A DNA stretch of 64,000 bases from Pirellulales bacterium (GTDB lineage Bacteria > Planctomycetota > Planctomycetia > Pirellulales > UBA1268). The notes beneath the pieces were generated by a model, which saw only the letters and a list, made by a program, of their open reading frames with translations, did no database searches and was not told where the DNA came from. The first letter of the stretch is position 1. Every line of letters starts with the position of its first letter. The stretch lies in NCBI GenBank assembly GCA_040877375.1, contig JBBDNW010000177.1, forward strand, positions 1,609 to 65,608, read 5' to 3'. Shown here piece by piece: positions 8,982 through 63,409 of this stretch. The position numbers and the translations under genes were made by a program.

Positions 8982-9013
8982 GTCGATTGCTCGCGAACTG
9001 TCTATTTCCTGGC

Positions 9014-9343
9014 TTAGGGGGAAACCATGGCCTTGAGGTTCTTCAAGGCGCGAACGCGGACCTTGACGCTGGCCGGCTTGGCCGGACGGTCCTGCAGTTC
9101 GCCGGTGAACGGGTTTTTAACACCCTTCTGTGCTGGGCGGGCCGGAACCTTGCGACGCTCAATCTTCACGAGTCCGGGGATCGAGAACACGCCGATCCCT
9201 GAGCCCTTGAGGGCCTTTTGGATCTCGGTGGTCAGCGACTCCAGAACTGCCACGACGTCCTTCTTCGGAAGGTTTGTCGTCTCGGAGATGCTCCGCATGA
9301 TCTCCGTCTTTGTCATCGGCTTGCTTCCCGACTTCTTCGCCAT
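9014..9343 (-). CDS. HU/IHF-family DNA-binding protein
   Basis: MTKTEIMRSISETTNLPKKDVVAVLESLTTEIQKALK...NPFTGE...VRVRALKNLK matches the HU fold pattern, including the beta-arm R-x-G-x-NP-x-TGE-like segment. Confidence 0.85.
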   Translation of the reverse strand: MAKKSGSKPMTKTEIMRSISETTNLPKKDVVAVLESLTTEIQKALKGSGIGVFSIPGLVKIERRKVPARPAQKGVKNPFTGELQDRPAKPASVKVRVRALKNLKAMVSP

Positions 9344-9659
9344 CGCCAGTCCTCCAAAATGTCAGAGTTGAGTGCGGTAGGAGCCCCACCGCCGTCAGAA
9401 AATCTCGGCTCAAAAGGCCGAACGAGACGCCGATTAGACTTTGCGGGTCTGAAAATGCAACCCAAAAAAAGCATCCGTCCCTGAAAAAAGGCCATTTTCC
9501 TGGCTTCGGGGCGTGTTTTTCTCCACGGTGCGGTCGTGAATAGCTCGATTGTTCGTGGAAAACCCCGCGATTCAAGGAGCGGATGGCACGCGGCACACCC
9601 GTTTGGGTGCAGGTGGTACGATCCCACGAGACGGTTGGTCGCCAGTCATCCGTGATTCC

Positions 9660-12600
9660 ATGTCAGTGCCCGTCCTTCAACGCCAACGCCGAACCCCCGC
9701 CTTGCCGAGCGGCGGATACACGTGGGCGGCTCCCGTGATGCTCGCTGTCGTGCTCCTGGCTTCGATGCTCTTGGCTTCGATGCTCTTGGCTTCGATGCTC
9801 TTGGCTTCGATGCTCAAGTTGCACGCGGCCGACGATGCCGGGGAGCGACTCTTCGACAACGCAGCCGATTCCGCGGCCGACGACGACAACGGCGTGTTTC
9901 TGCCGGCTGATCGCGTCAAGGAGCGGCAGCTCGACCGGGCCAGGCGTCTCGTCGACGGGGACGGATGGACCGACGCGGCCGCGTTGATCGACGAGTTGCT
10001 CGCGGATGATCGCGATGCGTTCGTTCAGGGCGGCACGGTCGGGGCCACTCGACGCAGCATTCGCAGCGAGGCGACCCGGCTCTTGGAAGGTATGCCCCAG
10101 CAAGGCCGCGACGCGTATGCACTTCTCTGCCGAAGCCGCGCGGAGCGGGCGTTGGCGGAAGCCTTCGCTCGCGACGACTCCGCAGGCGTCGTCGCGGTGG
10201 CCCGCCGCTGGCTCAACACGCCGGCGGGTCGCAAGGCGGCGCTGGTGACGGCATTCGAGGCGCTCGAGGCGGGGGAGCCGCTCGAGGCGCTGGTGTGGAT
10301 TGAGCGACTCACGGGATTTGGCGACGCTCTCGCGCTCGAGCCGACGCTCGCGTTGATGCGGGCGGCGGCAGGCCGCCGAGCGGGTGACCCAGAGGCGGCC
10401 GACATGCTTCGGATTGCCCGACGACGTGCCGCCGGCCCCGTGCGGGTCGGTGGCCGGGACGTGTCGCTTTCCCAGGACGACGGCGGCGCCACCGACTGGC
10501 TCGGAGTATTCGATGGATCGGGCGTCGCTGCCCACCGCACTGAAGGCGACTGGCTGCAGCCCCGCGGCAATGCTGCTCGTAACGCGATTGTCGAGGCGAC
10601 CCGGCCCCTCCTGGTGCCGCGATACCGAGTGCCGCTGACGCGTCATCCGGAGGAGTCACGCCTGCTCGAGAAGCGTCGTCGGGGCATCGTCGTGGGCGGC
10701 GACTTCGCCATTCCCGCCGCGATCCCGCTAGCAATCGACGGCACCATCGTCACGCACACCCAGTTTGGCATCCTCGCGATCGACTTCGAGACGGGCAATC
10801 GGCTCTGGCTCCGCTCCTCGTTTGCCCCATCCGCCGCAGCGTCGGTCGGCGAAAGCGGACTGGAATCAGGATTGGCCCGCGTGTTCGACGATGCGACGAG
10901 CGGCTGCCTGTCGAGCGACGGCCGGCATATCTTCGCCGTTGAGAGCCACCCTGATGCCCTGACGCCGCCGGCGGCGGGAGTGCTCGAGGCCAGACTCGGT
11001 CGCGGCGACGGGGGTGGGTGGCGTGGCGGCAACACCCTCACGGCGTACGACGTCGCCGCGAGAGGAAACATCCGCTGGCGGCTGCCGGCGGCTGATGCGG
11101 GAGCAGCCCTGTCGATGTGGTACATGGCCGCGCCGCTCGTAGTGGGCGATGACCTGTTCGTGCTCGTCGAGGAGAGCGGTCAACTGCGGCTCGACGTGCT
11201 CGATGCAGCGTTGGGAACGGTGCGCTGGTCCCAGCCACTTGCCGATCTCGATGAGCGGCAGTCGGCAGCCGCCCCCGAGTCGTTCGGACGCCGCCTGGCC
11301 GGTTTGACCCCGGCGTTTGCCGCCGGCGTGCTCGTGTGTCCGCTGGGCGGTGGTGTCGTCGTCGCGGTCGACGTGGCGACCCGCACGCTGCTCTGGGCCC
11401 ATCACTATCCAGTTTCCACTGCCGTCGCTGAGATGCCGGCCGGCATGGGCCGTCTGGGGGCGGTCGCGGAGGGCAAGGAAGAGGAGGCGGCTTTCCGGCG
11501 GCACGATTCTCTGCCGGTGATCGCGGGCGGCCGCGTGCTGCTGGCGGCGTATGACTCGGAGGAGCTGATTTGTCTTGGACTCCGCGACGGCGCGTCGGTA
11601 TGGCGGGAGCCGGTTCGAGGTCGCTGGCATCTGGCCGGCGTCGTCGATGGCAGGGTCGTGATCGTCGGTCGCGACGGCGTCGAGGCGCGGGCGGCCGACT
11701 CCGGACTGCGGCTCTGGGAGCGGCCGCACCCGGCCGGCATCAAACCCAGCGGGCGCGGCATCCTCACCGCCACGAGCTATTTCCTGCCACTCGACTCGGC
11801 GGAAGTCGTGGAAGTCGCCGTCGCCGACGGCTCAGTAGTCTCGAGGCATGCCGCCCGCGGGGCCGTCGCCCCCGGCAACCTCGTCGCCCACCGGGGTGAG
11901 ATCATCTCCCGCGGGGTGGACGCGATCGACGTCTATCACCAGGCGAATCCGCTCGAGTCGAGGATCGAAACGGCGCTCCGCGACCGACCCGATGATGCGT
12001 GGGCATCTTATTGGAAGGGGCAGCTGCAACTCGACGGCGGCGACGTGGCTGCGGGGCTCGCGCGGTTGCGGCAGTCGGCCGGCACCGCGGCCATTCGCGT
12101 GCCACCCGGGGCCATCGCCGATGCGATTGTCTATGGCATGCGTCGCGACTTCCCGGAGGCGGCCCGCCGTTGGGCGGAGTGGCCGGAGCCCATCGCAGCG
12201 GCGAGTGAAGTGGTTCGCGTGGTAGTCGACGGCTTTCTGGCTCGCGGTGACTTGAGAGCCGCCTGGCAGGCCTGCCAGGGGGTGCTGCGAACCGACGACG
12301 GGCCGCAGCCTTTGGAACTCCTCACTGATCAATCTGATCCGCAACTCGAAGTGCATCCCGATCGGTGGGTTCGAGGTCGGCTCGCCGAACTGGCGGCCCG
12401 CGCCCCCGAGCCGCTTCGGGAAGAGATCGCCGCCGACTTGCGGCAGCTGGTGGCGGAAGCCGCCGCCGAGCCCGCGGGCTCGAGGCAGCTCCGCAGGCTG
12501 CAGACCATCGTCGATCGGCTGGGCGGCCATGCGGTCGCGGGCGTTGCCCGGGAGGCGTTGCTCGCCGCGATCGATCGTCGGGCCGTCGCTGAGGGCGACC

Positions 12601-49980: not shown

Positions 49981-50952
49981 ATGGCCGCCGGACTGCATCG
50001 ACTGCCGCTGGAAAAACCGATCTACGAGATCGAGGACCGGATCGCCAGCCTCGAGGCCGCGCCGCTCGGGGGCCAGCAGCAGGAGCAACTCCGCCGGCTG
50101 AAGCGGGAACTCGTCGAGGTTCAGAAGAAGGTCTTCGGCAGCCTCGACCCCTGGCAGACCGTCGAGGTGTCGCGGCACCCAAACCGTCCGAAGACGAGCG
50201 ACTACCTCGACCTCGTGTTCGACGAGTTCGTGGAGCTTCACGGCGACAAGTCGTTCGGCGACGACCCGGCGATCCTCTCCGGCTTTGCCAAGCTCGACCA
50301 ATACAAAGTGATGGTGATCGGCCACCAGAAGGGCAAGACGCTCGCGGAGCGGCAGGCCTGCCACTTCGGCTGCGCGCATCCGGAGGGCTACCGCAAGGCG
50401 ATGGGCAAGATGCGGCTGGCGGCCAAATATGGTCTGCCGGTGATCTGCCTGATCGACACGCCCGGCGCCTATCCGGGGATCGGGGCCGAGGAGCGCGGCC
50501 AAGCCCAGGTGATCGCCGAGAGCATGTTTTTGATGGCGACGCTCCCGGTGCCGATCGTCTGCGTGGTGATCGGTGAAGGGGGATCCGGCGGAGCGCTTGG
50601 GATCGGCGTGGGCGATCGGGTGGCCGTCATGGAGCATGCCTACTACAGCGTGATCAGCCCTGAGGGGTGCGCCGGCATTCTCTGGAAGAGCGTCGAGTTC
50701 AAGGCCGAGGCGGCCCGGGCCCTGCGGTTCCGATCGGCCGACTTGAAGGAGTTTGGTGTGATCGACGCCGTGATCGAGGAGCCGGCAGGGGGCGCCCATC
50801 GGCATCCGCGGCGGATGGCGGCCCGGCTGAAGATGTATCTGGCGAGGTCGCTCCGCGAGCTGCTGGCCCGGCCGCGTGACCAGCTCGTGTCGGAGCGGTA
50901 CGACAAGTTTCGCCGGATGGGAAAGTTTCTCGACGACTCCGTAGCGGGCTGA
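49981..50952 (+). CDS. accA: acetyl-CoA carboxylase carboxyltransferase subunit alpha
   Basis: LEKPIYEIEDRIASLE, RHPNRP, IDTPGAYPG..AEERGQ, GEGGSGGALG. Confidence 0.95.
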   Translation: MAAGLHRLPLEKPIYEIEDRIASLEAAPLGGQQQEQLRRLKRELVEVQKKVFGSLDPWQTVEVSRHPNRPKTSDYLDLVFDEFVELHGDKSFGDDPAILSGFAKLDQYKVMVIGHQKGKTLAERQACHFGCAHPEGYRKAMGKMRLAAKYGLPVICLIDTPGAYPGIGAEERGQAQVIAESMFLMATLPVPIVCVVIGEGGSGGALGIGVGDRVAVMEHAYYSVISPEGCAGILWKSVEFKAEAARALRFRSADLKEFGVIDAVIEEPAGGAHRHPRRMAARLKMYLARSLRELLARPRDQLVSERYDKFRRMGKFLDDSVAG

Positions 50953-51017: not shown

Positions 51018-54000
51018 ATGAACGAAGCGGCAGCGAGCGGCACGACAGAGCAGGGGACCCCCGGTGGTCTCGACGCCTTCATCGCCCGCTGGGGAACGAG
51101 CGCCGGCGCGGAGCGGGCCAACTACCAGATTTTTCTCGCCGAGCTCTGCGACGTGCTCGGCGTGCCGCGGCCCGAGCCAAGCGTGGCCGACGAGGCGGCC
51201 AACCGCTACGTCTTCGACAAGGCCGTCACGTTTCAAAACCCCGACGGCAAGACGTCGACCGGCTACATCGATCTCTACCGCAGGGGGGCGTTTGTCTGCG
51301 AGACGAAGCAGTCGGTGGCCAAGCCCGAGAAGGATCCGCTTTCCGTGGCCGATCCGGCCGCGCCCAAGGCCCGCCGCAAGAGCGGCACGAGCGTCCGCGG
51401 CACCGTCGGCTGGGACGATTCGATGATCGCGGCCCGGGGCCAGGCCGAGGGCTACGTGCGAGCGCTTGCCGACGACAACCCACCGTTTCTGCTGGTGATC
51501 GACATCGGCCACTCGTTTGAGCTCTACGCCGACTTCTCGCGGCTCGGGAAGGTCTACACGGCGTTTCCCGACGCCCGCAGCCACCGTTTCTCGCTCGACG
51601 ATCTCCGCGACGAGGGCCTCCGCGAGCGGCTGAAAATGCTCTGGCTCGATCCGCTCGCGCTCGACCCGGCCCGTCATGCGGCCAAGGTCACCCGTGAGAT
51701 CGCCGCCCGGATCGCCGTGCTCGCACGCCGGCTGGAGGCGAAGGACTATGAGCCGGAGCAGGTGGCCTGGTTTCTGATCCGCTGCTTGTTCACGTTTTTC
51801 TCGGAAGACGTCTGCCTGACGCCCCGGGGCGGGTTCACGAGTCTCTTGGAGAGCATGAAGGAATCGCCCGAGCAGTTTGTGCCGCTCGTTTCGGAAGTCT
51901 GGAAGACGATGGGGCAGGGGGGCTTTTCAACGGCGCTCCGCACGCGGATCAAGCAGTTCAAGGGCACGATCTTCCGCGAGCACGATCCGCTGCCGCTCGA
52001 TGCCGACGAAATTGCCCTCCTGATCGATGCCGGCAAATCCGACTGGAAAGACGTGGAGCCGGCGATCTTCGGCACGCTTTTGGAGCGGGCTCTCGATCCC
52101 CGCGAGCGTCACAAGCTCGGCGCCCACTTCACGCCGCGGGCGTATGTCGAGCGGCTCGTCGTGCCCACGATCATCGAGCCGGTCCGCGACGACTGGGAGG
52201 CGGCCCGGGCGGCGAGCCTAACCGAGGCCAACGCGGGGCGACTCGACAACGCGAAGGCCGAGACGCGGAAGTTTCTCGACGGCCTCACGGCCATGAAGGT
52301 GCTCGACCCGGCCTGCGGCACTGGCAACTTTCTTTATGTGTCGATGGTGAAGCTCAAGGAGATCGAGGCGGAGGCCCGCGACTGGCTCGCGCAGCTCGGC
52401 GAGACGCAGACCGACCTTGAGCACATGGAGCGGACGGTCGATCCGCAGCAGTTTCTGGGGATCGAGATCAATCCCCGTGCGGTGGCGATCGCGGAAGTGG
52501 TGCTCTGGATCGGCTGGCTGCAGTGGCACTTGCGCGACCGCAAGAGCCCCGACAGTTTTTCGGAGCCGATCCTGCAGGCCTACGGCAACATCGAATGCCG
52601 CGACGCGCTGCTGGAATACGACAAGAAGGAACTCGTCCGCGACGAGTCAGGCAAACCCGTCACGCGGTGGGACGGCGTGACGACGAAGAAGCATCCGGTG
52701 ACGGGCGAGGACGTGCCAGACGACACGGCACGGGTATCCGTCGAGCGGTACGTGAACCCACGGAAGGCCGAGTGGCCGCAGGCGGATTTTGTCGTGGGCA
52801 ACCCGCCGTTTCTGGGGCCGGGCCGGATGCGGGCTGCCTTTGGGGACGGCTATACCGACGCAGTCAGAGATACCTATCCAGAAGTTCCCGAATCGTCGGA
52901 CTACGTCATGTATTGGTGGCACAAGGCTGCCGAGTTGCTGTCAGTCCGTAAGCTCCGTCGGTTTGGCCTCATCACGACAAACAGCATACGGCAATCGTTT
53001 GCCCGGCGCGTCATCCAGGCGTTCATGGGAGATTCGCCGAGAAGAGGATCGGAGTTGGTCAGCCTTGCGTTTGCGATTCCGGATCATCCGTGGGTTGACT
53101 CTGCCGACGGCGCTGCCGTGCGAATCGCTATGACCGTCGGATGTCGCGGCAAGACAGTTGGGCAACTGTCGGAGGTCACCGCTGAAGAAGAGGCTGTGGA
53201 CGAGCATGTCCCGGTCACTCTGGTCACACGATCTGGTTTTTTGTCAGCGGATCTCCGCGTGGGCGCGTCCGCATCCGTAGCAATCGAACTTGTTGCAAAC
53301 TCAGGGCTCGCGAACAGAGGGTTCTGTCTATTCGGCTCGGGATTCATTGTTTTGCTGGATCGCGCGCGAGAGCTCGGCCTTGGTCGCACGGTTGGTCTCG
53401 ACCGTCACATCCGGCCTTACCGCAATGGCAAGGATCTGACGCAGAGCCCCAGAGGCGTGTTCGTCATCGATCTTTTCGGGCTGTCGGAGCAGCAAGTGCA
53501 GGAGCAATTTCCCGATTGCTACCAGCACGTCGCGATGACGGTGAAGCCCGAACGAGCCGAAAACAAGCGTGAAAGCCGCCGGCGATTGTGGTGGGTGTTT
53601 GGTGAGCCAAACAAGCAACTGCGGCTCATGCTTCAGGGATTAGATCGGTACATCGCGACTTCAGAAACAGCCAAGTACCGGGTTTTTCAATTTTTGGACC
53701 GAGCTATAGCCCCCGACAACATGCTCGTAGCCATAGCATCCGACGACTCATTTTTACTGGGTCTCATGTCGAGCCGCATTCATGTCGTGTGGGCGCTGGC
53801 CGCAGGCGGGAGGCTCGGGGTCGGGAACGACCCTCGCTACAACAAAACCGCTTGCTTCGATCCATTCCCATTCCCAGCGGCGACCGACTCCCAGAAACAA
53901 AAAATCCGCGAGCTCGGCGAGGCGCTCGACGCGCATCGTAAGAAGCAGCAGGCGGCGCATCCGGGGCTGACGATCACGGGGATGTACAACGTCCTCGAAA

Positions 54001-54611
54001 AGCTCCGCTCAGGCGAAGCCCTCACCATCAAGGACAAGAAGATCCACGACGACGGCCTCGTGAGCGTGCTCAAGAAGATCCACGACGACCTCGATGCCGC
54101 TGTGTTCGACGCCTACGGCTGGCCGGCCACGCTCACCGACGACGAGATCCTGGAGCGGCTCGTAGCCTTGAACCACGAGCGGGCCGCCGAGGAAAAGCGC
54201 GGCCTCATCCGCTGGCTGCGGCCCGAGTTTCAAAACAGTTCTCGCACCAAGGCGGGCGGCGGCGACGTGCAGCAGACGCTCGCTGAGGCTGACATCGATG
54301 ACGACGACGCGGACGACGACACCACCGAGCCCGGCGTCGAAAAGCCTAAACGAGGCAGGGGGGCTGCCAAGAAGTCGGCCGGCCGGGTGGCCAAGGCTCC
54401 GAAGGCGTCGAAGCAGTCCTGGCCCAAGGACCTCGCCGAGCAGACGCGGGCCGTTCGCAGCGCGCTCGCAGCCGTGGGCGGGATCATGACAGCCGCCGAC
54501 GTCGCCAAGCAGTTCAAAAATGCGAAGTCGCCGCGCGTGGAAGAAATCCTCGCCACCCTCGTGGCCTTGGGCCACGCCCGCCGCACTGATGACGGCTACG
54601 CGTCGGCGTGA
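51018..54611 (+). CDS. MmeI-family type IIL restriction-modification enzyme (fused PD-ExK nuclease, N6-adenine methyltransferase, specificity domain)
   Basis: Nuclease motif YIDLYRRGAFVCETK (D85-x9-E95-x-K97) has the same spacing as I recall for MmeI D70/E80/K82. LIRCLFTFFSEDV, SDWKDVEPAIFGTLLERAL...LGAHFTP, motif I VLDPACGTGNFL, motif IV VVGNPPFLG (52791-52817). Confidence 0.8.
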   Translation: MNEAAASGTTEQGTPGGLDAFIARWGTSAGAERANYQIFLAELCDVLGVPRPEPSVADEAANRYVFDKAVTFQNPDGKTSTGYIDLYRRGAFVCETKQSVAKPEKDPLSVADPAAPKARRKSGTSVRGTVGWDDSMIAARGQAEGYVRALADDNPPFLLVIDIGHSFELYADFSRLGKVYTAFPDARSHRFSLDDLRDEGLRERLKMLWLDPLALDPARHAAKVTREIAARIAVLARRLEAKDYEPEQVAWFLIRCLFTFFSEDVCLTPRGGFTSLLESMKESPEQFVPLVSEVWKTMGQGGFSTALRTRIKQFKGTIFREHDPLPLDADEIALLIDAGKSDWKDVEPAIFGTLLERALDPRERHKLGAHFTPRAYVERLVVPTIIEPVRDDWEAARAASLTEANAGRLDNAKAETRKFLDGLTAMKVLDPACGTGNFLYVSMVKLKEIEAEARDWLAQLGETQTDLEHMERTVDPQQFLGIEINPRAVAIAEVVLWIGWLQWHLRDRKSPDSFSEPILQAYGNIECRDALLEYDKKELVRDESGKPVTRWDGVTTKKHPVTGEDVPDDTARVSVERYVNPRKAEWPQADFVVGNPPFLGPGRMRAAFGDGYTDAVRDTYPEVPESSDYVMYWWHKAAELLSVRKLRRFGLITTNSIRQSFARRVIQAFMGDSPRRGSELVSLAFAIPDHPWVDSADGAAVRIAMTVGCRGKTVGQLSEVTAEEEAVDEHVPVTLVTRSGFLSADLRVGASASVAIELVANSGLANRGFCLFGSGFIVLLDRARELGLGRTVGLDRHIRPYRNGKDLTQSPRGVFVIDLFGLSEQQVQEQFPDCYQHVAMTVKPERAENKRESRRRLWWVFGEPNKQLRLMLQGLDRYIATSETAKYRVFQFLDRAIAPDNMLVAIASDDSFLLGLMSSRIHVVWALAAGGRLGVGNDPRYNKTACFDPFPFPAATDSQKQKIRELGEALDAHRKKQQAAHPGLTITGMYNVLEKLRSGEALTIKDKKIHDDGLVSVLKKIHDDLDAAVFDAYGWPATLTDDEILERLVALNHERAAEEKRGLIRWLRPEFQNSSRTKAGGGDVQQTLAEADIDDDDADDDTTEPGVEKPKRGRGAAKKSAGRVAKAPKASKQSWPKDLAEQTRAVRSALAAVGGIMTAADVAKQFKNAKSPRVEEILATLVALGHARRTDDGYASA

Positions 54612-54660
54612 CGCACGATCTGCCACCCAGACACTCCGCTCCGGGGTTTTCTGCCGATGT

Positions 54661-54695
54661 TTCCAAAATGCACACATTGTGTGTAATATGGGCTA
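54661..54695 (+). promoter_or_regulatory. putative sigma70-type promoter with overlapping palindromic operator for brnTA
   Basis: TTCCAA (54661-66), 17-nt spacer, TAATAT (54684-89). The spacer contains the perfect palindrome CACACA-T-TGTGTG (54671-83). The ATG lies 6 nt after the -10 box, which suggests a leaderless mRNA. Confidence 0.4.
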
Positions 54696-54974
54696 ATGTC
54701 GCAGTTCGATTGGAACGATGAAAAAAGCCGAGCTCTCAAAGCTGAGCGGGGCATCTCGTTTGAGGACGTGGTTTTTTACGTGGCGGCTGGTGGGCTGCTC
54801 GACGTGCTAGATCATCCAAATCCAGGAGCCTACCCAGGCCAGCGCATCTTGATCGTGGATATCGACGGATACGCCTTCGTCGTTCCGTTCGTGGCTGACG
54901 GCGACGTGCTGTTCTTGAAGACGATCATTCCGAGCAGAAAAATGACAAAGCGTTACTTCGGAGGCAGGCGATGA
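54696..54974 (+). CDS. brnT: BrnT-family (DUF497) type II toxin
   Basis: FDWNDEKSRALKAERGISFEDV at the N-terminus and LKTIIPSRKMTKRY at the C-terminus match the DUF497/BrnT pattern. 92 aa. Overlaps the antitoxin gene. Confidence 0.75.
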   Translation: MSQFDWNDEKSRALKAERGISFEDVVFYVAAGGLLDVLDHPNPGAYPGQRILIVDIDGYAFVVPFVADGDVLFLKTIIPSRKMTKRYFGGRR

Positions 54975-55258
54975 AAAAACTCGATCGTGACGAAGCCCGG
55001 CTGCTGGCATCGGTGGAACGCGGAGACTGGAAGCGGTCCGGAACGGTGGCCAAGGACATGGCGCGGCTTCAGGCGGCCGCGCGGGCGACCGTGCGGAAGG
55101 ACAAGCGAGTGAACATTCGGATCACCGCCCGGGATCTCGCGCACTTGCAGAGAGCAGCCGTGGAGGAAGGGATTCCTTACCAGACGTTCATCTCGAGTAT
55201 CTTGCACAAATACATTGCCGGCCGGCTCGTCGAGCGGCCACGGCCGACGTCAGCCTGA
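54971..55258 (+). CDS. brnA: BrnA/CopG-type antitoxin
   Basis: ATGA overlap with brnT. C-terminal RHH-like NIRITARDLAHLQRAAVEEGIPYQTFISSILHKYIAGRL is typical of BrnA-type antitoxins. Confidence 0.75.
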   Translation: MKKLDRDEARLLASVERGDWKRSGTVAKDMARLQAAARATVRKDKRVNIRITARDLAHLQRAAVEEGIPYQTFISSILHKYIAGRLVERPRPTSA

Positions 55259-55354
55259 TTTTCGGAGCTTTCAAACGCTCAGTTCCAGGGTTTCCCGCAG
55301 ATTCGCTCCCGCGTCTTCGACCGTGGCGCCTTGGGCGATTCTTCCGGATGCCAC

Positions 55355-55804
55355 TCAGCGGGCATTGTACAGATAGAGCACTGCGGCCCAGCCACTTGGC
55401 AGGAGTCGCGGCGCGTGGTCGAGGGACTTGGCGTAGCGCACCGCCAGAGACAGGAACGTTTTGGCGTGGAAGAACGCCTCGAGGATCGGCCGTGTTTCGT
55501 TGAGCCAGTCACGGTTCATTTCCGGGCTGAAGTTCTTCCCAGTTCCTGCCGCAACGATCTCCAGGAACCAGTCGTTGAGGCCCCGGCCCTGATCGTGCTT
55601 GCGGAGGGCTTCAACGATCTGCAGGGTCAGGCTCTGTAGGCCCAGGACTTTCCAGCTCTGGTGGTAGAGGCGGTAAAAGGGATCCTCGAAGCCCCAGTGG
55701 GAGTCCGACTCCTCCAGGAGTGTTTCCAGCGCAGGCAGATCCGCCTTGAGCGACTGCAGAAGCGGCTCGGTTTCGTGATCGATGTCTTTCGGTTCAGTGG
55801 ACAT
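55355..55804 (-). CDS. hypothetical protein (149 aa), downstream partner of the DCTPP1/MazG-like gene
   Basis: GAGGGA RBS lies 5 nt before the ATG. Begins 41 nt after the upstream gene. I recognise no motif (HWGFEDPFYRLYHQSWKV...). Confidence 0.6.
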   Translation of the reverse strand: MSTEPKDIDHETEPLLQSLKADLPALETLLEESDSHWGFEDPFYRLYHQSWKVLGLQSLTLQIVEALRKHDQGRGLNDWFLEIVAAGTGKNFSPEMNRDWLNETRPILEAFFHAKTFLSLAVRYAKSLDHAPRLLPSGWAAVLYLYNAR

Positions 55805-55845
55805 GCGATTCCCTCACGCGGGTAGCGGTCCCAGCGGACGCTGGG

Positions 55846-56226
55846 TCAGCCCCCGCCGAGTTCCGTGTACTTACAAGCGTTGCCCCGGGCGAGAGTGACC
55901 GGGTATTTCCGCTCGTTCGCCGTCAGCTTGGCGGTGATCGCCTCGGCCAAGTCGATACCCAGCCGGTCGGCGAGGAGCATGGCGAACATCACGACGTCGG
56001 CGATCTCCTCGGCCACACCAGCCCGTTTGGCGGCGTCGGCCAGATCCTGATCGACCTCGGCGTCGGTTTTCCAGAGAAACCGCTCCTGGAGTTCGGCGGC
56101 CTCGATGGCGACCGCTGCCGCTAGGTTCTTCGGCGTGTGAAACTCCGCCCAGTCGCGGGCGTCCCGAAACTGGCAGACGGCCACCACGAGGTCGGCGAGC
56201 GTGACGGTGGAAGGGAGATGAGACAT
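55846..56226 (-). CDS. DCTPP1/MazG-like all-alpha nucleoside-triphosphate pyrophosphohydrolase
   Basis: FRDARDWAEFHTPKNLAAAVAIEAAELQERFLWK...EEIADVVMFAMLLADRLGIDLAEAITAKLTANERKYP. Start taken at ATG 56226 (MSHLPSTV...). Confidence 0.8.
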   Translation of the reverse strand: MSHLPSTVTLADLVVAVCQFRDARDWAEFHTPKNLAAAVAIEAAELQERFLWKTDAEVDQDLADAAKRAGVAEEIADVVMFAMLLADRLGIDLAEAITAKLTANERKYPVTLARGNACKYTELGGG

Positions 56227-56451: not shown

Positions 56452-57288
56452 TCAGCGGATGGGAAGTGGCGTCTGCGCGCCAACCGGAAATTGCCCCGGC
56501 ATCTGTTGTTGCTGCGGCCGGTTCAGAAACCCGCTCGTTGCTGGCGGTGTTGGATGTGCCGGCTGCACGGGTGCGGTCGTCGGTCCGCCCCAAGCGGCTG
56601 GCGAGGTGAATCCGGCTGGCACGGCCTGCTGCCCCCCCTGCCCCAGCGTCGCGGGCCCGGCGGCGTTGCCCGTCCAAGCGGTCGGCGAGGTGACGCTCTC
56701 CCAGATGGCCTTGAACGCAGACGGCTGGGCCAAGCCGCCCGGCGGTGGCGGAGGAGCGACACCGGCTCCCGGCTGCCGGAACTGTTCTTCAAACTGCTTC
56801 ACGAATGGCTGCACCGGCTCCACGATGTTCGGGGGGAGCAGTTCATCGGCCCGGACGATGATCTCGGCCACGAGTCGGCCGCTGCGACTGCCGACGATCT
56901 GGTTGCGGTAGGCAGGGGCCAAGGTAACGGCGAAGAAGGTGACCACGACGCAGATCAGTCCGCCCTTCGCTAGGCCGAAGACCAGACCGAGCTGATGGTC
57001 GAACGCCGAGAGGTGGACGGCGCTGATCGCACCTGAGATCACGCGGAAGACGAGCCACACCGCCAGCGAGGTGCCCACGTAAATCGCCAGCATCGCGATC
57101 AGACGATTCCAGGGCGCCTGCTGACCAACGAAAGGGGCCAGGGAACCGCCGAACCGCAGGGCCAGAAAACTGCTGGCCGCGATGCCGGCGATCCACGCGA
57201 GTTGCCAGACAATACCCTTAAAATAGCCGAGCACCGCGGCTGCGGCGAGGATGCCGAGCATCACCAGGTCGTAGCCTTCGATCGCCAT
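56452..57288 (-). CDS. cvpA: CvpA-family membrane protein with P/G/Q-rich C-terminal tail
   Basis: MAIEGYDLVMLGILAAAAVLGYFKGIVWQLAWIAG followed by 4 TM helices is typical of CvpA. Start taken at ATG 57288. Confidence 0.75.
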   Translation of the reverse strand: MAIEGYDLVMLGILAAAAVLGYFKGIVWQLAWIAGIAASSFLALRFGGSLAPFVGQQAPWNRLIAMLAIYVGTSLAVWLVFRVISGAISAVHLSAFDHQLGLVFGLAKGGLICVVVTFFAVTLAPAYRNQIVGSRSGRLVAEIIVRADELLPPNIVEPVQPFVKQFEEQFRQPGAGVAPPPPPGGLAQPSAFKAIWESVTSPTAWTGNAAGPATLGQGGQQAVPAGFTSPAAWGGPTTAPVQPAHPTPPATSGFLNRPQQQQMPGQFPVGAQTPLPIR

Positions 57289-57646
57289 CGAGCAGCATCT
57301 CCTGAGGACCGCAAGTTTGCGGGAGGCGGAGTGTAGGGGCCGGGCGGCTGGGCAACGAAGCCCAGAAACCCGATTCTTTTGAGCTGATATGAAGCCAGCG
57401 ACGCCACAATCGGCAACCATTTCCCAAAGCCCCTAGGCGATTCATTTTATCGCTCGCGCGGCCTTTCAGTCCGCGCAGACCACCCATAACTCCCATTCCA
57501 CTGTTTTTCGCTCACCGCCACGGGCGCAGGTCTGGGTGACGACCGTTCCGAACGTTTGCTTTCGGCGGTGCAGGGGATGCCACGCGGTGTCGGCTGTCCC
57601 TTTGTCAGGCAACGGTCGATACGAACGAAGGTTTGCGCCGATCGGA

Positions 57647-61823: not shown

Positions 61824-62684
61824 TCAACCGGTTTCAGACGCCGCCATGCGCCGCCATTTTTCGAGATCGGGCACGGTGTCATCGGCGCGGTCGCCGTGCG
61901 GAATCACCTCCTGGAGATCCACTTCAGGGTTGGCAAGGGCGGCGACCGACTCGAGGATCATGTCTGGGCCGTAAGCATAGCGGGCCAGATCGCGCTTCTT
62001 GGTCGAGCCGCTGAGTACAAGGATCGTCCGGTATCCCATCTGCACGCCGCCTAGAATGTCGGTCTCCATCGTGTCGCCCACCATGATCGTCTCGCTGGTT
62101 GCCAGGCCAAGCTCCTTGCGGGCAGCCCGCATCATGATGGGGCTTGGCTTGCCGATGCTGAGGGCCTTCGTGCCGGTGGCTGTCTCAAGGTAGGCCACCG
62201 TCGCTCCGCAACCCGGCCTCGTGCCGTTCTTGGTGGGGCAGTTGGGATCGAGGTTCGTTGCAATGAGCTTGGCACCGCCCAGAATCATCGTCACGGCGGT
62301 TTCGAGCATGTCGAGCGTGACCGTCCGGCCCTCGCCGACCACAACGAAATCGGGCGCGTGATCGACCACTGTATAGCCATTGTGGTGAAGCGCGTTGAGA
62401 AGCCCCCCTTCCCCGATGGCAAACGCCGTGCCTTCCGGCTTGTGCATGGCGAGGTACCGTGCCGTCGCCATCGAGCAGGTGAAGATGTGTTTCTCTTCAG
62501 CGGGGATCCCCATGCGGACGAGTTTCATGGCCACGTCTCGTTTGGTTCGCTGGCTGTTGTTCGTGAGGAACACGAACGGAATGCTTTCCCGGAGTAGCCG
62601 CCGAATAAACAGATCGGCCCCAGGAATCAGTTCGCCGCCGCGATGGACGACCCCGTCCATATCGATCAAATACCCGCGCTTCAT
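61824..62684 (-). CDS. HAD-IIA family hydrolase (NagD-like sugar-phosphatase type)
   Basis: YLIDMDGVVHRG (DxDG), FLTNNS and GDTMETDILGG. Start taken at ATG 62684. Confidence 0.85.
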   Translation of the reverse strand: MKRGYLIDMDGVVHRGGELIPGADLFIRRLLRESIPFVFLTNNSQRTKRDVAMKLVRMGIPAEEKHIFTCSMATARYLAMHKPEGTAFAIGEGGLLNALHHNGYTVVDHAPDFVVVGEGRTVTLDMLETAVTMILGGAKLIATNLDPNCPTKNGTRPGCGATVAYLETATGTKALSIGKPSPIMMRAARKELGLATSETIMVGDTMETDILGGVQMGYRTILVLSGSTKKRDLARYAYGPDMILESVAALANPEVDLQEVIPHGDRADDTVPDLEKWRRMAASETG

Positions 62685-63409
62685 AGTATCTCCAGGTCTT
62701 GATGGCACCGGGAAAGAGCCCGGTGACTGAGGTGGGAATCAAGAACTATCACGACGTCGGCGCCTTCCCTCGAACGAGGAAACGCCGGATGGGAGTCGGA
62801 CTGTCCAAGAGATGTGCAAACCCCGTGCCGTGCCCCCAATGACCTCCGCCGAAGCCCTTTTTTTAATCGGCTTCATCACGTGTGCCCTAGCCGTAGGCGT
62901 CCTGCCCGTTTCCTGGGCAGAGCATCGGGTTGGCGATGCATGAGCAAACAAGGCCTGCGGACCGGATGGTCGATGGGCCTTTTCTGCTGCGTGACCCCGT
63001 GTGCCCTCATGTTCACCGCGCTCGCCGCGTTTCTCACGCGGCCCCGAGTCCGCCCGCATTGTGGCACGGCGTCATCCCGCCGGTGCCCGCGGCGGTGGGT
63101 GATCTCCGTGCCGAAACGGTTGCGCGGAATCCTCGCCGATCGGGCTTCCACGTTTCTTGTGGGGCAGCGGACTGGCTCTGAAGCCGGGGAAGTCGCCGTT
63201 TGGGGCCTGTTTTTTGGTAAGGGCACAGACCGACTCCGGCTTCACATTCGGCGGGAGCTTCAGAGCGCGTGGATGTCGATCACCGGCAGTTCGTTGGCTG
63301 AGGCCTGCACGACATCTCGGTCATCGTGAGCCTGAACGAGCTCGCCCCAGTCGGTGGGCGGTCCTCTCGCGGGTGACACAGGTGGCGGCCGGGGCGAGGA
63401 AACGCCCAA

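What the first reader, a model, noticed from the sequence alone, without database searches (positions are those of the whole stretch)
51018..56226. Compact defence-type islet: type IIL R-M, BrnT/BrnA, then a convergent pair of a DCTPP1/MazG-like gene and an unknown
Between two housekeeping genes (accA, cvpA) lie five accessory genes. They are a single-polypeptide restriction-modification enzyme, a type II toxin-antitoxin pair with its own AT-rich promoter, and on the opposite strand an NTP pyrophosphohydrolase followed by a 149-aa unknown. Much of 52.85-55.3 kb is visibly AT-richer than the flanks. Clustering of R-M, TA and nucleotide-metabolising genes is the classic signature of defence islands, and uncharacterised genes embedded in them are enriched for new immunity functions. 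I saw no integrase or tRNA boundary, so the mode of acquisition is unclear.
Basis: partly seen in the sequence, partly recalled or inferred. Interest (0 to 1): 0.55.

Follow-up and report, generated by a model that had tools for sequence, protein, structure and literature searches.

The report
Layered restriction/toxin slot beside an orphan gene
The five genes between accA and cvpA are not one imported defence island: an old restriction enzyme with a swapped DNA-recognition cassette and a recently inserted toxin-antitoxin pair sit beside two long-resident genes, one of which belongs to a large unnamed protein family that elsewhere keeps company with RNA-repair, NAD and CRISPR genes.

Summary
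All five genes sit at the stated coordinates: an MmeI-family type IIL restriction-modification (R-M) enzyme, a BrnT/BrnA-like pair, a DCTPP1-type MazG-like gene and a 149-aa unknown. No tRNA or integrase is nearby.

Ten related Planctomycetota contigs share the flanking synteny.
- **The 149-aa gene** is present in every one, at 88-95% identity.
- **MazG-like** is present in four of the ten.
- **The R-M gene** is an old resident. It is full-length in one relative (L100), runs off the contig end in another (L015), is reduced to tail remnants in three, and is absent in five.
- **The low-GC signal** comes from just two pieces. One is a replaced recognition-domain cassette (aa ~600-950). The other is the BrnT/BrnA pair, which displaced a 73-aa HicB-like gene; 19 codons of it remain.

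The orphan belongs to a family of about 1000 clusters. It has no hit in Pfam, NCBIfam, PADLOC or PHROGs, and no significant match in PDB or BFVD. Elsewhere the family:
- is fused to Tpt1/KptA and to cREC;
- sits in an RNA-ligase/kinase/RtcA/RlaP operon;
- lies near NAD-salvage and tRNA-repair genes on large IMG/VR contigs;
- lies between cas7 and cas4 in verrucomicrobial type I-C loci.

The islet itself is ordinary. The orphan family is the lead worth following.

The parts
49981..50952 (+). accA, the left core flank
   Evidence: Pfam ACCA 428 bits. Syntenic in relatives at 78-93% identity.
51018..54611 (+). MmeI-family type IIL (IIG) single-chain restriction-modification enzyme, 1197 aa
   Evidence: All four Pfam MmeI domains score above cut-off. 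PADLOC PDLC03627 scores 1508 bits. PDB 5hr4 MmeI, E 5e-36. An orthologue occupies the same slot in L100 (1189 aa) and L015.
51270..51308 (+). Endonuclease motif D85-X9-E95-X-K97
   Evidence: Regex on the translation.
52305..52331 (+). SAM-binding motif I, DPACGTGNF (aa 430-438)
52800..52811 (+). Methyltransferase motif IV, NPPF (aa 595-598)
52818..53867 (+). Replaced recognition-domain (TRD) cassette, aa ~601-950; this is the first low-GC stretch
   Evidence: Identity to the L100 and L015 orthologues is 22-61% across aa 601-900, and 62-78% in the 901-950 boundary block. The flanks are 82-100% identical. L100 and L015 are 72-98% identical to each other in the same segment. GC3 is 0.64 here against 0.85-0.86 for the rest of the gene.
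54414..54608 (+). C-terminal tail of the R-M protein (aa 1133-1197); the only part surviving in three relatives
   Evidence: tblastn finds remnants covering only aa ~1133-1197 in L014, L016 and L012, the last with two copies.
54671..54689 (+). Inverted repeat CACACA-T-TGTGTG followed by TAATAT, 6 nt upstream of the brnT ATG; a possible operator and -10 element (inference)
   Evidence: Read from the sequence. The consensus promoter scan did not detect it.
54696..54974 (+). BrnT-like (DUF497) toxin, 92 aa; recently inserted
   Evidence: Pfam PF04365 at 27.4 bits, below the 34.5 cut-off. Homologues at 82-90% identity are named BrnT family toxin and carry PF04365. The AF2 model has pLDDT 94 and a RelE/YafQ-like fold, Foldseek probability 0.99. 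GC3 0.65. Absent from all relatives except for a 19-aa remnant in L012.
54971..55258 (+). BrnA/CopG-like antitoxin, 95 aa
   Evidence: Pfam CopG_antitoxin at 22.8 bits, below the 28 cut-off. NCBIfam BrnA at 19 bits, below the cut-off. Overlaps brnT by 4 nt.
55280..55336 (-). 19-codon remnant of the 73-aa HicB/UPF0150-like gene that follows the orphan gene in most relatives
   Evidence: tblastn matches aa 27-45 at 68% identity, E 4e-6 against a 221-nt subject. The intact gene is present in L004-006, L011, L012, L014-016 and L100; L101 holds only its first 33 codons before the contig ends.
55355..55804 (-). Orphan 149-aa all-alpha protein; lineage-conserved resident and member of a large unnamed family
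   Evidence: No hit in Pfam, NCBIfam, PADLOC or PHROGs. 947 and 996 homologous clusters. AF2 pLDDT 89 with 7 helices. No significant PDB or BFVD fold match. Present at this site in all ten relatives.
55846..56226 (-). DCTPP1-type MazG-like all-alpha NTP pyrophosphatase; lies 41 nt upstream of the orphan on the same strand; start codon uncertain (the ORF runs to 56334)
   Evidence: PF12643 at 65 bits. PDB DCTPP1, E 3e-26. ExxE and ExxD motifs present. Present in L004, L011, L017 and L102; absent in L012-L016 and L100.
56452..57420 (-). cvpA, the right core flank
   Evidence: Pfam Colicin_V 75 bits. Syntenic in relatives.

Best explanation
The accA-cvpA interval of this Planctomycetota (Planctomycetaceae-like) genome is a chromosomal variable slot built in three layers of different age.

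**Layer 1, oldest.** A resident pair on the minus strand: a DCTPP1-type MazG-like nucleotide pyrophosphatase and a 149-aa all-helical orphan. The orphan is fixed at this site in the whole clade.

**Layer 2.** An MmeI-family type IIL enzyme that has long lived in the slot. It has native codon composition and an orthologue in L100 and L015. It is predicted to work like MmeI: one polypeptide recognises an asymmetric site, methylates one strand and cuts about 20 nt away. Its nuclease and methylase motifs are intact. The segment right after the NPPF motif (aa ~600-950, the target-recognition domain) is a different allele from that of its orthologues, so its DNA specificity has probably been switched by cassette replacement. 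In sister genomes the gene has been deleted down to its last ~65 codons, or lost entirely.

**Layer 3, youngest.** A low-GC BrnT/BrnA-like toxin-antitoxin pair inserted between the R-M gene and the orphan. It destroyed a 73-aa HicB-like gene.

**The orphan (inferred, about 0.3 confidence).** It is not defence cargo here. Its family's fusions and neighbourhoods elsewhere suggest a phosphate- or nucleotide-handling module of the NAD+-dependent RNA end-healing / ADP-ribose-derivative network. [quoted passage not shown] Pyrophosphatases such as MazG-like or Nudix enzymes would clear the nucleotide products.
For: **Layering of the slot.**
- Synteny across ten related contigs. The orphan is present in all of them. 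MazG-like is in L004, L011, L017 and L102 only.
- MmeI is full-length in L100 and runs to the contig end in L015. L012, L014 and L016 keep tail-only remnants. It is absent in L004, L011, L013, L017 and L102.
- BrnT/BrnA occurs only in the window and in L001, a 1.8-kb contig with 100% identical proteins, plus a 19-aa remnant in L012.
- The slot is empty in L013 (109 bp) and L102 (48 bp).
- Mosaic R-M gene: sliding identity is 0.82-1.0 in the flanks against 0.22-0.61 across aa 601-900, while L100 and L015 agree with each other there. GC3 is 0.64 in the cassette against 0.85-0.86 in the rest of the gene.
- R-M motifs are intact.
- A HicB-like remnant lies at 55280-55336, and the intact gene is present in relatives.

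**Orphan family.**
- The Tpt1::domain fusion occurs in 8 clusters that are only 50-61% identical to the query P0169 over the full length. The C-terminal domain is 47% identical to the window protein, E 7e-43.
- L105 carries methyltransferase, RNA ligase, HD+kinase, Tpt1::domain, RtcA and RlaP in a row.
- cREC::domain fusion at 103 bits, encoded next to a cpYpsA SLOG gene and on the same contig as a Metallophos gene, on an integrase-bearing element.
- On IMG/VR contigs the ±4 kb around the gene holds NAD synthase (twice), NAD-dependent ligase, a CCA-adding enzyme, Thg1, nicotinamidase-like Isochorismatase, Nudix, a CTP_transf_like (nucleotidyltransferase-superfamily) protein and YpsA SLOG.
- Nudix genes lie directly adjacent in L069, L087 and L092.
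- The literature places cREC, KptA, Nudix, SLOG and MazG in one NAD+/ADPr and RNA-repair network (PMC9503650, PMC7824862).
Against: **Layering of the slot.**
- All relatives are metagenome contigs or MAGs, so the order of gains and losses is not rooted on a species tree.
- GC3 is also low in the recognition segment of L100 and L015 (0.57-0.73). Low GC may therefore be a general property of this cassette, not proof of a very recent import.
- The specificity change is inferred, not measured.

**Orphan family.**
- The nearest-neighbour census found 129 different Pfam families among 147 neighbours and no obligate partner.
- The informative fusions and operons are a small minority of about 1000 clusters.
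- Three Nudix neighbours among 147 is not statistically compelling.
- No catalytic fold could be recognised.
- H48 is replaced by Tyr in some members, including the Tpt1 fusion P0276.
- In the window genome there is no Tpt1, ligase or cas gene next to it.
Confidence: 0.68

Rival explanations
1. One reading: all five genes form one horizontally acquired defence island, dropped between two housekeeping genes.
For: R-M, TA and a nucleotide-metabolising gene are clustered. The interval varies between relatives. Low-GC DNA is present.
Against: The orphan is at this site in all ten relatives, and MazG-like in four. The orphan, MazG-like and the R-M backbone all have native GC3. There is no integrase, tRNA or bounding repeat. 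Remnants show piecemeal decay and insertion, not a single unit.
Confidence: 0.07
2. MazG-like plus the orphan form a self-contained two-gene anti-phage system. For example, the orphan could sense infection while the pyrophosphatase degrades dNTPs or modified or signalling nucleotides.
For: The two genes are tandem, 41 nt apart on the same strand. The pair is kept in L004, L011, L017 and L102. Nudix genes, which are also nucleotide pyrophosphatases, adjoin the orphan family in three other loci.
Against: Six relatives keep the orphan at 88-91% identity with no MazG-like gene or remnant. MazG-like is not found next to the family outside this clade. Neither protein hits PADLOC.
Confidence: 0.12
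3. The orphan is one partner of a toxin-antitoxin-like pair with the 73-aa HicB/UPF0150-like protein that follows it in most relatives.
For: The 73-aa gene lies immediately downstream on the same strand in at least nine related contigs. One family member (P0241) carries an N-terminal extension that reads like a HicB-type domain. That is my reading; Pfam gives only a weak DUF7387 hit.
Against: The window, L013, L017 and L102 lack an intact 73-aa gene yet keep an intact, highly conserved orphan. The family is 55-60% identical across phyla, which is unusual for TA components. The 73-aa Pfam hit is below the cut-off, at 18 versus 27.3 bits.
Confidence: 0.06
4. The orphan is a CRISPR-Cas accessory protein, linked to type I-C adaptation or crRNA handling. 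It has been retained here as a stand-alone relic or given a different role.
For: In the verrucomicrobial loci L018, L019, L021, L022, L024, L025 and L028 the gene sits just upstream of cas4, cas1 and cas2. Cas7 was identified directly upstream in five of these loci. Arrays of 6-27 repeats follow cas2. The order is kept although Cas7 is only 48-58% identical and Cas1 60-64% identical between loci. L083 (Acidobacteria) has cas2 and a cas4-cas1 fusion beside it.
Against: Only about 8 of 86 non-redundant loci are cas-linked. The window has no cas genes in the ORFs examined around the islet. Most contexts are unrelated to CRISPR.
Confidence: 0.1

Closest known systems
MmeI (type IIL / IIG restriction-modification enzymes; PDB 5hr4)
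   Same: Same four-domain order: N-terminal nuclease, helical spacer, gamma-type N6-adenine methylase, TRD. It has the D-X9-EXK, DPxCGxGxF and NPPF motifs, and no separate methylase or specificity gene.
   Different: It is 1197 aa against 919 aa. The extra ~200-aa C-terminal extension has an acidic/basic low-complexity stretch and a ~65-aa terminal domain. The TRD segment is a different allele from its own orthologues. The recognition site and cut distance are unknown.
BrnT/BrnA type II toxin-antitoxin (DUF497 RNase toxin plus CopG/RHH antitoxin)
   Same: The toxin gene comes first and overlaps the antitoxin gene by 4 nt. The sizes are ~90 aa each. The toxin has a RelE-like fold. Close homologues are named BrnT family toxin.
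   Different: Both proteins score below the Pfam and NCBIfam cut-offs. There is no sequence hit to a solved BrnT structure.
DCTPP1 / RS21-C6 all-alpha (MazG-like) dCTP pyrophosphatase
   Same: PF12643. E 3e-26 to mouse and human DCTPP1. Metal-binding ExxE...ExxD motifs are present.
   Different: It is bacterial, encoded in tandem with the orphan, and its substrate is unknown.
Chromosomal defence hotspots / defence islands
   Same: A fixed chromosomal position between core genes whose content (R-M, several TA-like genes, decaying remnants) differs between close relatives.
   Different: It is very small (0-4.4 kb) and has no mobility genes. Two of the five genes are lineage-conserved residents, not cargo.
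NAD+/ADP-ribose and RNA-repair network domains (KptA/Tpt1, cREC, 2H, Macro, NADAR, SLOG, Nudix) as catalogued in PMC9503650 and PMC7824862
   Same: The orphan's family is fused to KptA/Tpt1 and to cREC. It neighbours SLOG, Nudix, Metallophos, RNA ligase, RtcA, RlaP, NAD synthase and nicotinamidase-like genes.
   Different: It matches none of those domains by sequence or fold. It is a small all-alpha domain that always sits at the extreme C-terminus and ends in a conserved Arg. No text search of the two review papers turned up such a domain.

Membership tests
MmeI family, type IIL/IIG R-M | N-terminal PD-(D/E)XK nuclease with D-X9-E-X-K | tested here: met
   D85-X9-E95-X-K97. Pfam MmeI_N 78.7 bits against a cut-off of 27.
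MmeI family, type IIL/IIG R-M | Helical spacer plus gamma-class N6-adenine methyltransferase, with motif I and motif IV NPPF/Y | tested here: met
   MmeI_hel 40 bits. MmeI_Mtase 105.9 bits. DPACGTGNF at 430-438. NPPF at 595-598.
MmeI family, type IIL/IIG R-M | C-terminal target-recognition domain in the same polypeptide; no separate M or S gene | tested here: met
   MmeI_TRD 41 bits, covering profile positions 134-206 only. PADLOC full-length model 1508 bits. The neighbouring ORFs are accA and brnT.
MmeI family, type IIL/IIG R-M | Cuts ~20/18 nt from an asymmetric site and methylates one strand only | not testable with these tools
   Needs a cleavage assay or a SMRT methylome.
BrnT/BrnA type II TA | Toxin is a DUF497/BrnT family member (PF04365) | tested here: inconclusive
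   The direct score of 27.4 bits is below the 34.5 cut-off. Homologues at 82-90% identity carry PF04365 and the NCBI name 'BrnT family toxin'.
BrnT/BrnA type II TA | RelE-like alpha/beta toxin fold | tested here: met
   AF2 pLDDT 94. The best PDB matches are YafQ/RelE/HigB-type toxins, probability 0.99, TM ~0.5.
BrnT/BrnA type II TA | Adjacent CopG/RHH BrnA antitoxin, with the toxin gene upstream | tested here: inconclusive
   Gene order and the 4-nt overlap fit. CopG_antitoxin scores 22.8 against a cut-off of 28, and NCBIfam BrnA 19 against 60.
BrnT/BrnA type II TA | Ribonuclease toxicity neutralised by the antitoxin | not testable with these tools
   Needs an expression and rescue assay.
MazG-like / DCTPP1 all-alpha NTP pyrophosphatase | PF12643 domain with ExxE...ExxD metal-binding motifs | tested here: met
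   65.3 bits against a cut-off of 27. DCTPP1 E 3e-26. E42xxE45 and E74xxD77.
Defence island (horizontally acquired block) | Presence/absence polymorphism of the genes among close relatives | tested here: met
   Met for the R-M gene, the TA pair, the HicB-like gene and MazG-like. Not met for the 149-aa gene, which is present in all ten relatives.
Defence island (horizontally acquired block) | Compositional deviation across the block | tested here: not met
   Only the TRD cassette (GC3 0.64) and BrnT/BrnA (0.65/0.75) deviate. The R-M backbone is 0.85-0.86, MazG-like 0.83 and the orphan 0.77, against 0.76-0.90 for core genes.
Defence island (horizontally acquired block) | Mobility signatures (integrase, tRNA target, bounding repeats) | tested here: not met
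HEPN superfamily (considered for the orphan) | R-x4-6-H motif in a four-helix bundle; detectable fold similarity | tested here: not met
   The conserved Arg/His pairs are R45-x2-H48 and R105-x7-H113. HEPN chains appear only at Foldseek E ~4. No Pfam HEPN family was hit even at E of 5 or less.
Known NAD+/ADPr-processing domains (Macro, 2H, NADAR, cREC, SLOG, Nudix), considered for the orphan | Sequence or fold match to one of these superfamilies | tested here: not met
   No Pfam or NCBIfam hit. No significant PDB or BFVD fold hit. The link is contextual only.
CRISPR-Cas type I-C accessory gene (considered for the orphan family) | Conserved position inside cas operons with an adjacent array | tested here: met
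   Met for the verrucomicrobial homologues. It does not apply to the window copy, which has no cas neighbours.

The most novel reading that the evidence does not exclude
The 149-aa protein would represent a previously undescribed domain family of about 1000 clusters. It has no match in Pfam, NCBIfam, PHROGs or PADLOC and no significant PDB or BFVD match. It would be a new working part of NAD+-dependent RNA end repair and ADP-ribose-derivative processing. The module always sits at the extreme C-terminus and ends in a conserved Arg. It has been recruited repeatedly: by Tpt1/KptA and cREC fusions, by RNA-ligase/RtcA/RlaP operons on mobile elements, by NAD-salvage and tRNA-repair modules of large phages, and by type I-C CRISPR-Cas operons of Verrucomicrobiota. 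In the CRISPR loci it could act on the cyclic-phosphate ends of crRNAs or of cleaved RNAs.
Probability: 0.3. Interest if true: 0.7.

Novelty: new member of a known kind. Interest (0 to 1): 0.45.

Why it matters
The islet itself is a textbook small defence hotspot. It gives a clean natural example of two known processes in a poorly studied phylum. One is specificity switching of an MmeI-type enzyme by recognition-domain cassette replacement. The other is turnover of addiction modules at a fixed chromosomal site.

The larger payoff is the orphan gene. It is a large, strongly conserved, cross-phylum family that no curated library names. Its recurrent fusions and neighbourhoods point to RNA-end or ADP-ribose chemistry, which sits at the centre of current phage-defence and counter-defence research, and to type I-C CRISPR-Cas. 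The prediction can be tested directly with purified protein and defined substrates.

Tried and rejected
**Naming the orphan**
- Pfam, NCBIfam, PADLOC and PHROGs gave nothing on the window protein.
- Pfam on 30 family members at E of 5 or less gave only scattered noise.
- A profile search of PDB sequences had a best E of 0.27.
- Foldseek of a confident model against PDB and BFVD had best E values of 1.2 and 0.67, with TM ~0.3.
- tblastn against isolate phages and PLSDB plasmids found no match.

**Ideas tested and dropped**
- *HEPN:* raised by weak Foldseek hits to TT1696 and HepT. Rejected because the Rx4-6H motif is absent and the scores are insignificant.
- *An obligate partner gene:* rejected. 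The nearest-neighbour census found 129 Pfam families among 147 neighbours. PADLOC on the same set showed mainly Cas proteins, from one phylum.

**Islet boundaries**
- The promoter and terminator scan found 0 promoters and fewer terminators than in shuffled sequence.
- The tRNA scan found none.
- The repeat search found only short chance matches.

**Literature**
- A search for a type I-C accessory gene of this kind found nothing relevant.
- The 2016 Burroughs & Aravind RNA-repair survey is not held in the library. I could not check whether the domain was named there.

Full report
**1. What is in the sequence**

- **51018-54611 (+).** This encodes a 1197-aa protein with all four MmeI Pfam domains above their cut-offs. 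It matches the PADLOC type IIG model PDLC03627 over its full length at 1508 bits. MmeI itself (PDB 5hr4) is its only solved relative, at E 5e-36. The nuclease motif D85-X9-E95-X-K97, SAM motif I (DPACGTGNF, 430-438) and motif IV (NPPF, 595-598) are all intact.
- **54696-54974 and 54971-55258 (+).** These overlap by 4 nt. They hit BrnT_toxin and CopG_antitoxin, but below the curated cut-offs.
  - Homologues of the toxin at 82-90% identity carry PF04365, and NCBI names them 'BrnT family toxin'.
  - A confident model (pLDDT 94) best matches YafQ/RelE-type toxins, the fold class to which BrnT belongs.
- **55846-56226 (-).** This is a MazG-like protein (PF12643, 65 bits). Its closest solved relative is DCTPP1/RS21-C6, at E 3e-26.
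- **55355-55804 (-).** This encodes the 149-aa unknown, which has no hit in Pfam, NCBIfam, PADLOC or PHROGs.
- **Boundaries.** No tRNA, no Pfam integrase domain in the seven proteins scanned and no bounding repeat mark the interval.

**2. The AT-rich signal has two separate sources**
- Windows of 500 nt fall to GC 0.56-0.60. The window mean is 0.675 with sd 0.035.
- The dip occurs only at ~52.8-53.9 kb and ~54.5-55.25 kb.
- Gene by gene, GC3 (GC at third codon positions) is as follows:

| Segment | GC3 |
|---|---|
| R-M gene, first 600 codons | 0.86 |
| R-M gene, codons 601-950 | 0.64 |
| R-M gene, remainder | 0.85 |
| brnT | 0.65 |
| brnA | 0.75 |
| 149-aa orphan | 0.77 |
| MazG-like | 0.83 |
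| flanking core genes | 0.76-0.90 |

**3. Comparison with relatives splits the 'islet' into layers**

A genome-collection scan with the orphan family, look-ups of close homologues and tblastn of the window proteins gave ten distinct related Planctomycetota contigs. All share the order zip-ydjM-cvpA ... accA-kinase.
- **The orphan** is present in every one, next to cvpA. It is 88-95% identical, against 78-93% for accA and 52-77% for cvpA.
- **MazG-like** is present in L004, L011, L017 and L102. It is absent, with no detectable remnant, in L012-L016 and L100.
- **The slot between the orphan and accA** differs in nearly every genome:

| Genome | Slot content |
|---|---|
| L102 | empty (48 bp) |
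| L013 | empty (109 bp) |
| L011 | a 73-aa HicB/UPF0150-like gene only |
| L100 | the 73-aa gene plus a full-length MmeI orthologue (1189 aa) |
| L015 | the 73-aa gene plus an MmeI orthologue running to the contig end |
| L014, L016 | the 73-aa gene plus only the last ~65 codons of MmeI |
| L012 | the 73-aa gene, MmeI tail remnant in two copies, a 19-aa BrnT remnant and a DUF433-like ORF |
| L004 | the 73-aa gene plus a weakly GNAT-like 217-aa gene |
| L017 | DUF433-like ORF, an 814-aa unknown and the GNAT-like gene |

- **In the window**, the 73-aa gene is reduced to 19 codons at 55280-55336. BrnT/BrnA, found in no relative apart from the L012 remnant, occupies its place.
- **Conclusions.** The R-M gene is an old resident that is being lost in sister lineages. 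The TA pair is a recent insertion. The orphan, and less strictly MazG-like, belong to the lineage's stable gene set.

**4. The R-M gene is a mosaic**
- Aligned with the L100 and L015 orthologues, the window protein is 82-100% identical over aa 51-600.
- It is 86-94% identical over aa 951-1050.
- It is only 22-61% identical over aa 601-900.
- L100 and L015 are 72-98% identical to each other in that same segment.
- The breakpoint lies directly after the NPPF motif. The replaced block covers the end of the methylase domain and the recognition domain.
- All three genes have low GC3 in this block. The cassette therefore seems to circulate with its own composition.
- From what is known of MmeI-family enzymes, where specificity resides in the TRD, the likely consequence is a different recognition sequence. 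That is an inference.

**5. The orphan family**
- **Size and conservation.**
  - It has 947 clusters at 90% identity and 996 representative clusters at 50% identity, 640 of them below E 1e-10.
  - All are unnamed and lack Pfam domains.
  - Members are spread over Planctomycetota, Verrucomicrobiota, Acidobacteriota, Myxococcota/Desulfobacterota and other phyla.
  - Nine lie on IMG/VR contigs of 72-392 kb.
  - Conservation is high, at 55-60% identity across phyla.
- **Conserved positions.**
  - Over 366 sequences, D41, Y44, R45, Y47, H48, S50, K52, Q57, T60, G87, N97, W100, P106, A110, H113 and the very last residue R149 are each conserved in at least 95% of sequences.
  - In longer proteins the domain is always at the extreme C-terminus.
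- **Structure.**
  - The AF2 model is confident (pLDDT 89, pTM 0.85) and has seven helices.
  - It matches nothing significant in PDB or BFVD.
- **No obligate partner.** A census of 147 nearest neighbours from 74 non-redundant loci found 129 different Pfam families.

**6. Contexts that point to a function**

- **(a) Fusions with Tpt1/KptA RNA 2'-phosphotransferase.**
  - These occur in eight clusters that are only 50-61% identical to the query P0169 over the full length, so the architecture is old and selected.
  - The fused domain is 47% identical to the window protein.
  - One fusion lies in L105, in the gene series methyltransferase, RNA ligase (PF09414), HD+AAA_33 kinase, Tpt1::domain, RtcA cyclase, RlaP.
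  - That series sits beside relaxase- and TraG-like genes. It is a canonical RNA-repair operon on a mobile element; RlaP is discussed as RNA-ligase-associated in PMC12776372.
- **(b) A cREC::domain fusion.**
  - It scores 103 bits.
  - It is encoded next to a circularly permuted YpsA SLOG gene and on the same contig as a Metallophos gene, behind an integrase.
- **(c) Neighbours on the IMG/VR contigs.** The ±4 kb around the gene holds NAD synthase (twice), NAD-dependent DNA ligase, a CCA-adding enzyme, Thg1, a nicotinamidase-like Isochorismatase (directly adjacent in L097), Nudix (adjacent in L092), a CTP_transf_like (nucleotidyltransferase-superfamily) protein and a YpsA SLOG protein (adjacent in L098).
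- **(d) Further Nudix neighbours.** Nudix genes also adjoin the gene in L069 and L087.
- **(e) Verrucomicrobial type I-C CRISPR-Cas loci.**
  - In seven verrucomicrobial loci the gene sits just upstream of cas4-cas1-cas2, with Cas7c identified directly upstream in five of them.
  - Arrays of 6-27 typical I-C repeats follow cas2.
  - The order persists although Cas7 is 48-58% and Cas1 60-64% identical between loci.
  - An acidobacterial locus has cas2 and a cas4-cas1 fusion beside it.
- **(f) Integrase-adjacent copies.** Other copies lie just after an integrase and a small ORF.

Published surveys place KptA, cREC, SLOG, Nudix and MazG together in NAD+/ADP-ribose and RNA-repair conflict systems (PMC9503650, PMC7824862). 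Text searches of those two papers did not turn up a helical domain of this kind.

**7. Proposed mechanism**

*Shown*
- The layered history of the slot.
- Intact catalytic motifs in the R-M enzyme.
- The TRD allele difference.
- The displacement of the HicB-like gene.
- The family's fusions and neighbourhoods.

*Inferred*
- The R-M enzyme acts like MmeI, with an altered specificity.
- The TA pair is autoregulated through the inverted repeat upstream of brnT.
- The orphan handles a phosphate-bearing RNA end or an ADP-ribose-derived by-product at the Tpt1 step. Nucleotide pyrophosphatases (MazG-like here, Nudix elsewhere) would act on the released nucleotides.
- From my own knowledge, not tested here: type I-C pre-crRNA cleavage by Cas5 leaves 2',3'-cyclic phosphate ends. 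That would give such an activity something to do in a cas operon.

I put about 0.3 on this functional area for the orphan. I put about 0.8 on the layered-slot account of the islet.

**8. Verdict**
- The finding is real and well described, but its framing as one compact acquired defence islet is only partly right.
- The R-M and TA parts are ordinary members of known families in a typical variable slot.
- The MazG-like gene is a known type.
- The 149-aa gene is the novel element: a member of a large unnamed family with a coherent but indirect link to RNA repair, NAD+/ADP-ribose chemistry and type I-C CRISPR-Cas.

Noticed in passing
L018, L019, L021, L022, L024, L025, L028 (e.g. L019:4982-8404; arrays at L024:9681-11427, L021:9862-10748, L025:9201-9566): Homologues of the 149-aa gene sit inside complete type I-C CRISPR-Cas operons of Verrucomicrobiota, just upstream of cas4, with arrays after cas2. 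Cas7 was identified directly upstream in five of the seven loci. The position is kept although Cas7 is only 48-58% identical between loci.
   Followed up: partly
L105:4596-9856: An RNA-repair operon on a mobile element carries methyltransferase, RNA ligase, HD+kinase, Tpt1 fused to the orphan domain, RtcA and RlaP. Replic_Relax and TraG-like genes follow.
   Followed up: partly
L108:32-7164: An integrase-bearing element carries an HTH protein, a circularly permuted YpsA SLOG protein, a 119-aa ORF, cREC fused to the orphan domain, a Metallophos phosphoesterase and HicA.
   Followed up: no
window 54018-54611 (aa ~1000-1197 of the R-M protein): The MmeI-family protein has a ~200-aa C-terminal extension that MmeI lacks. 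It contains an acidic run (DDDDADDD), a lysine-rich stretch and a terminal ~65-aa domain. That terminal domain alone survives in L014, L016 and twice in L012, which may mean it has a function of its own.
   Followed up: partly
L040:5998-6444 and 9050-9490: Two copies of the orphan family (52-54% identical to the window protein) lie 3 kb apart in one Planctomycetota MAG contig.
   Followed up: no
L102:404-870 (same in L103): Two small overlapping genes of 79 and 76 aa lie upstream of MazG-like in the relatives with an empty slot. The second reads like a truncated PIN/VapC-type toxin (my reading, not tested). This suggests a second TA insertion point on the cvpA side.
   Followed up: no
L017:6592-10446: In this relative the slot holds a DUF433-like 105-aa ORF (my reading, not tested), an 814-aa protein with no assignment and a weakly GNAT-like 217-aa gene shared with L004.
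   Followed up: no
window 9001-9750 and 62251-63000: Two other stretches of the window have GC below 0.60, comparable to the dips in the islet.
   Followed up: no
L069:6255-6971 and L087:6405-7004: Nudix ORFs with near-identical Nudix-box motifs (19 of 20 residues: GGSEPDEEPLLTAKRELQEE and GGIEPDEEPLLTAKRELQEE) follow the orphan homologue in a Planctomycetaceae MAG and in a deltaproteobacterial MAG. This suggests the pair moved together.
   Followed up: no
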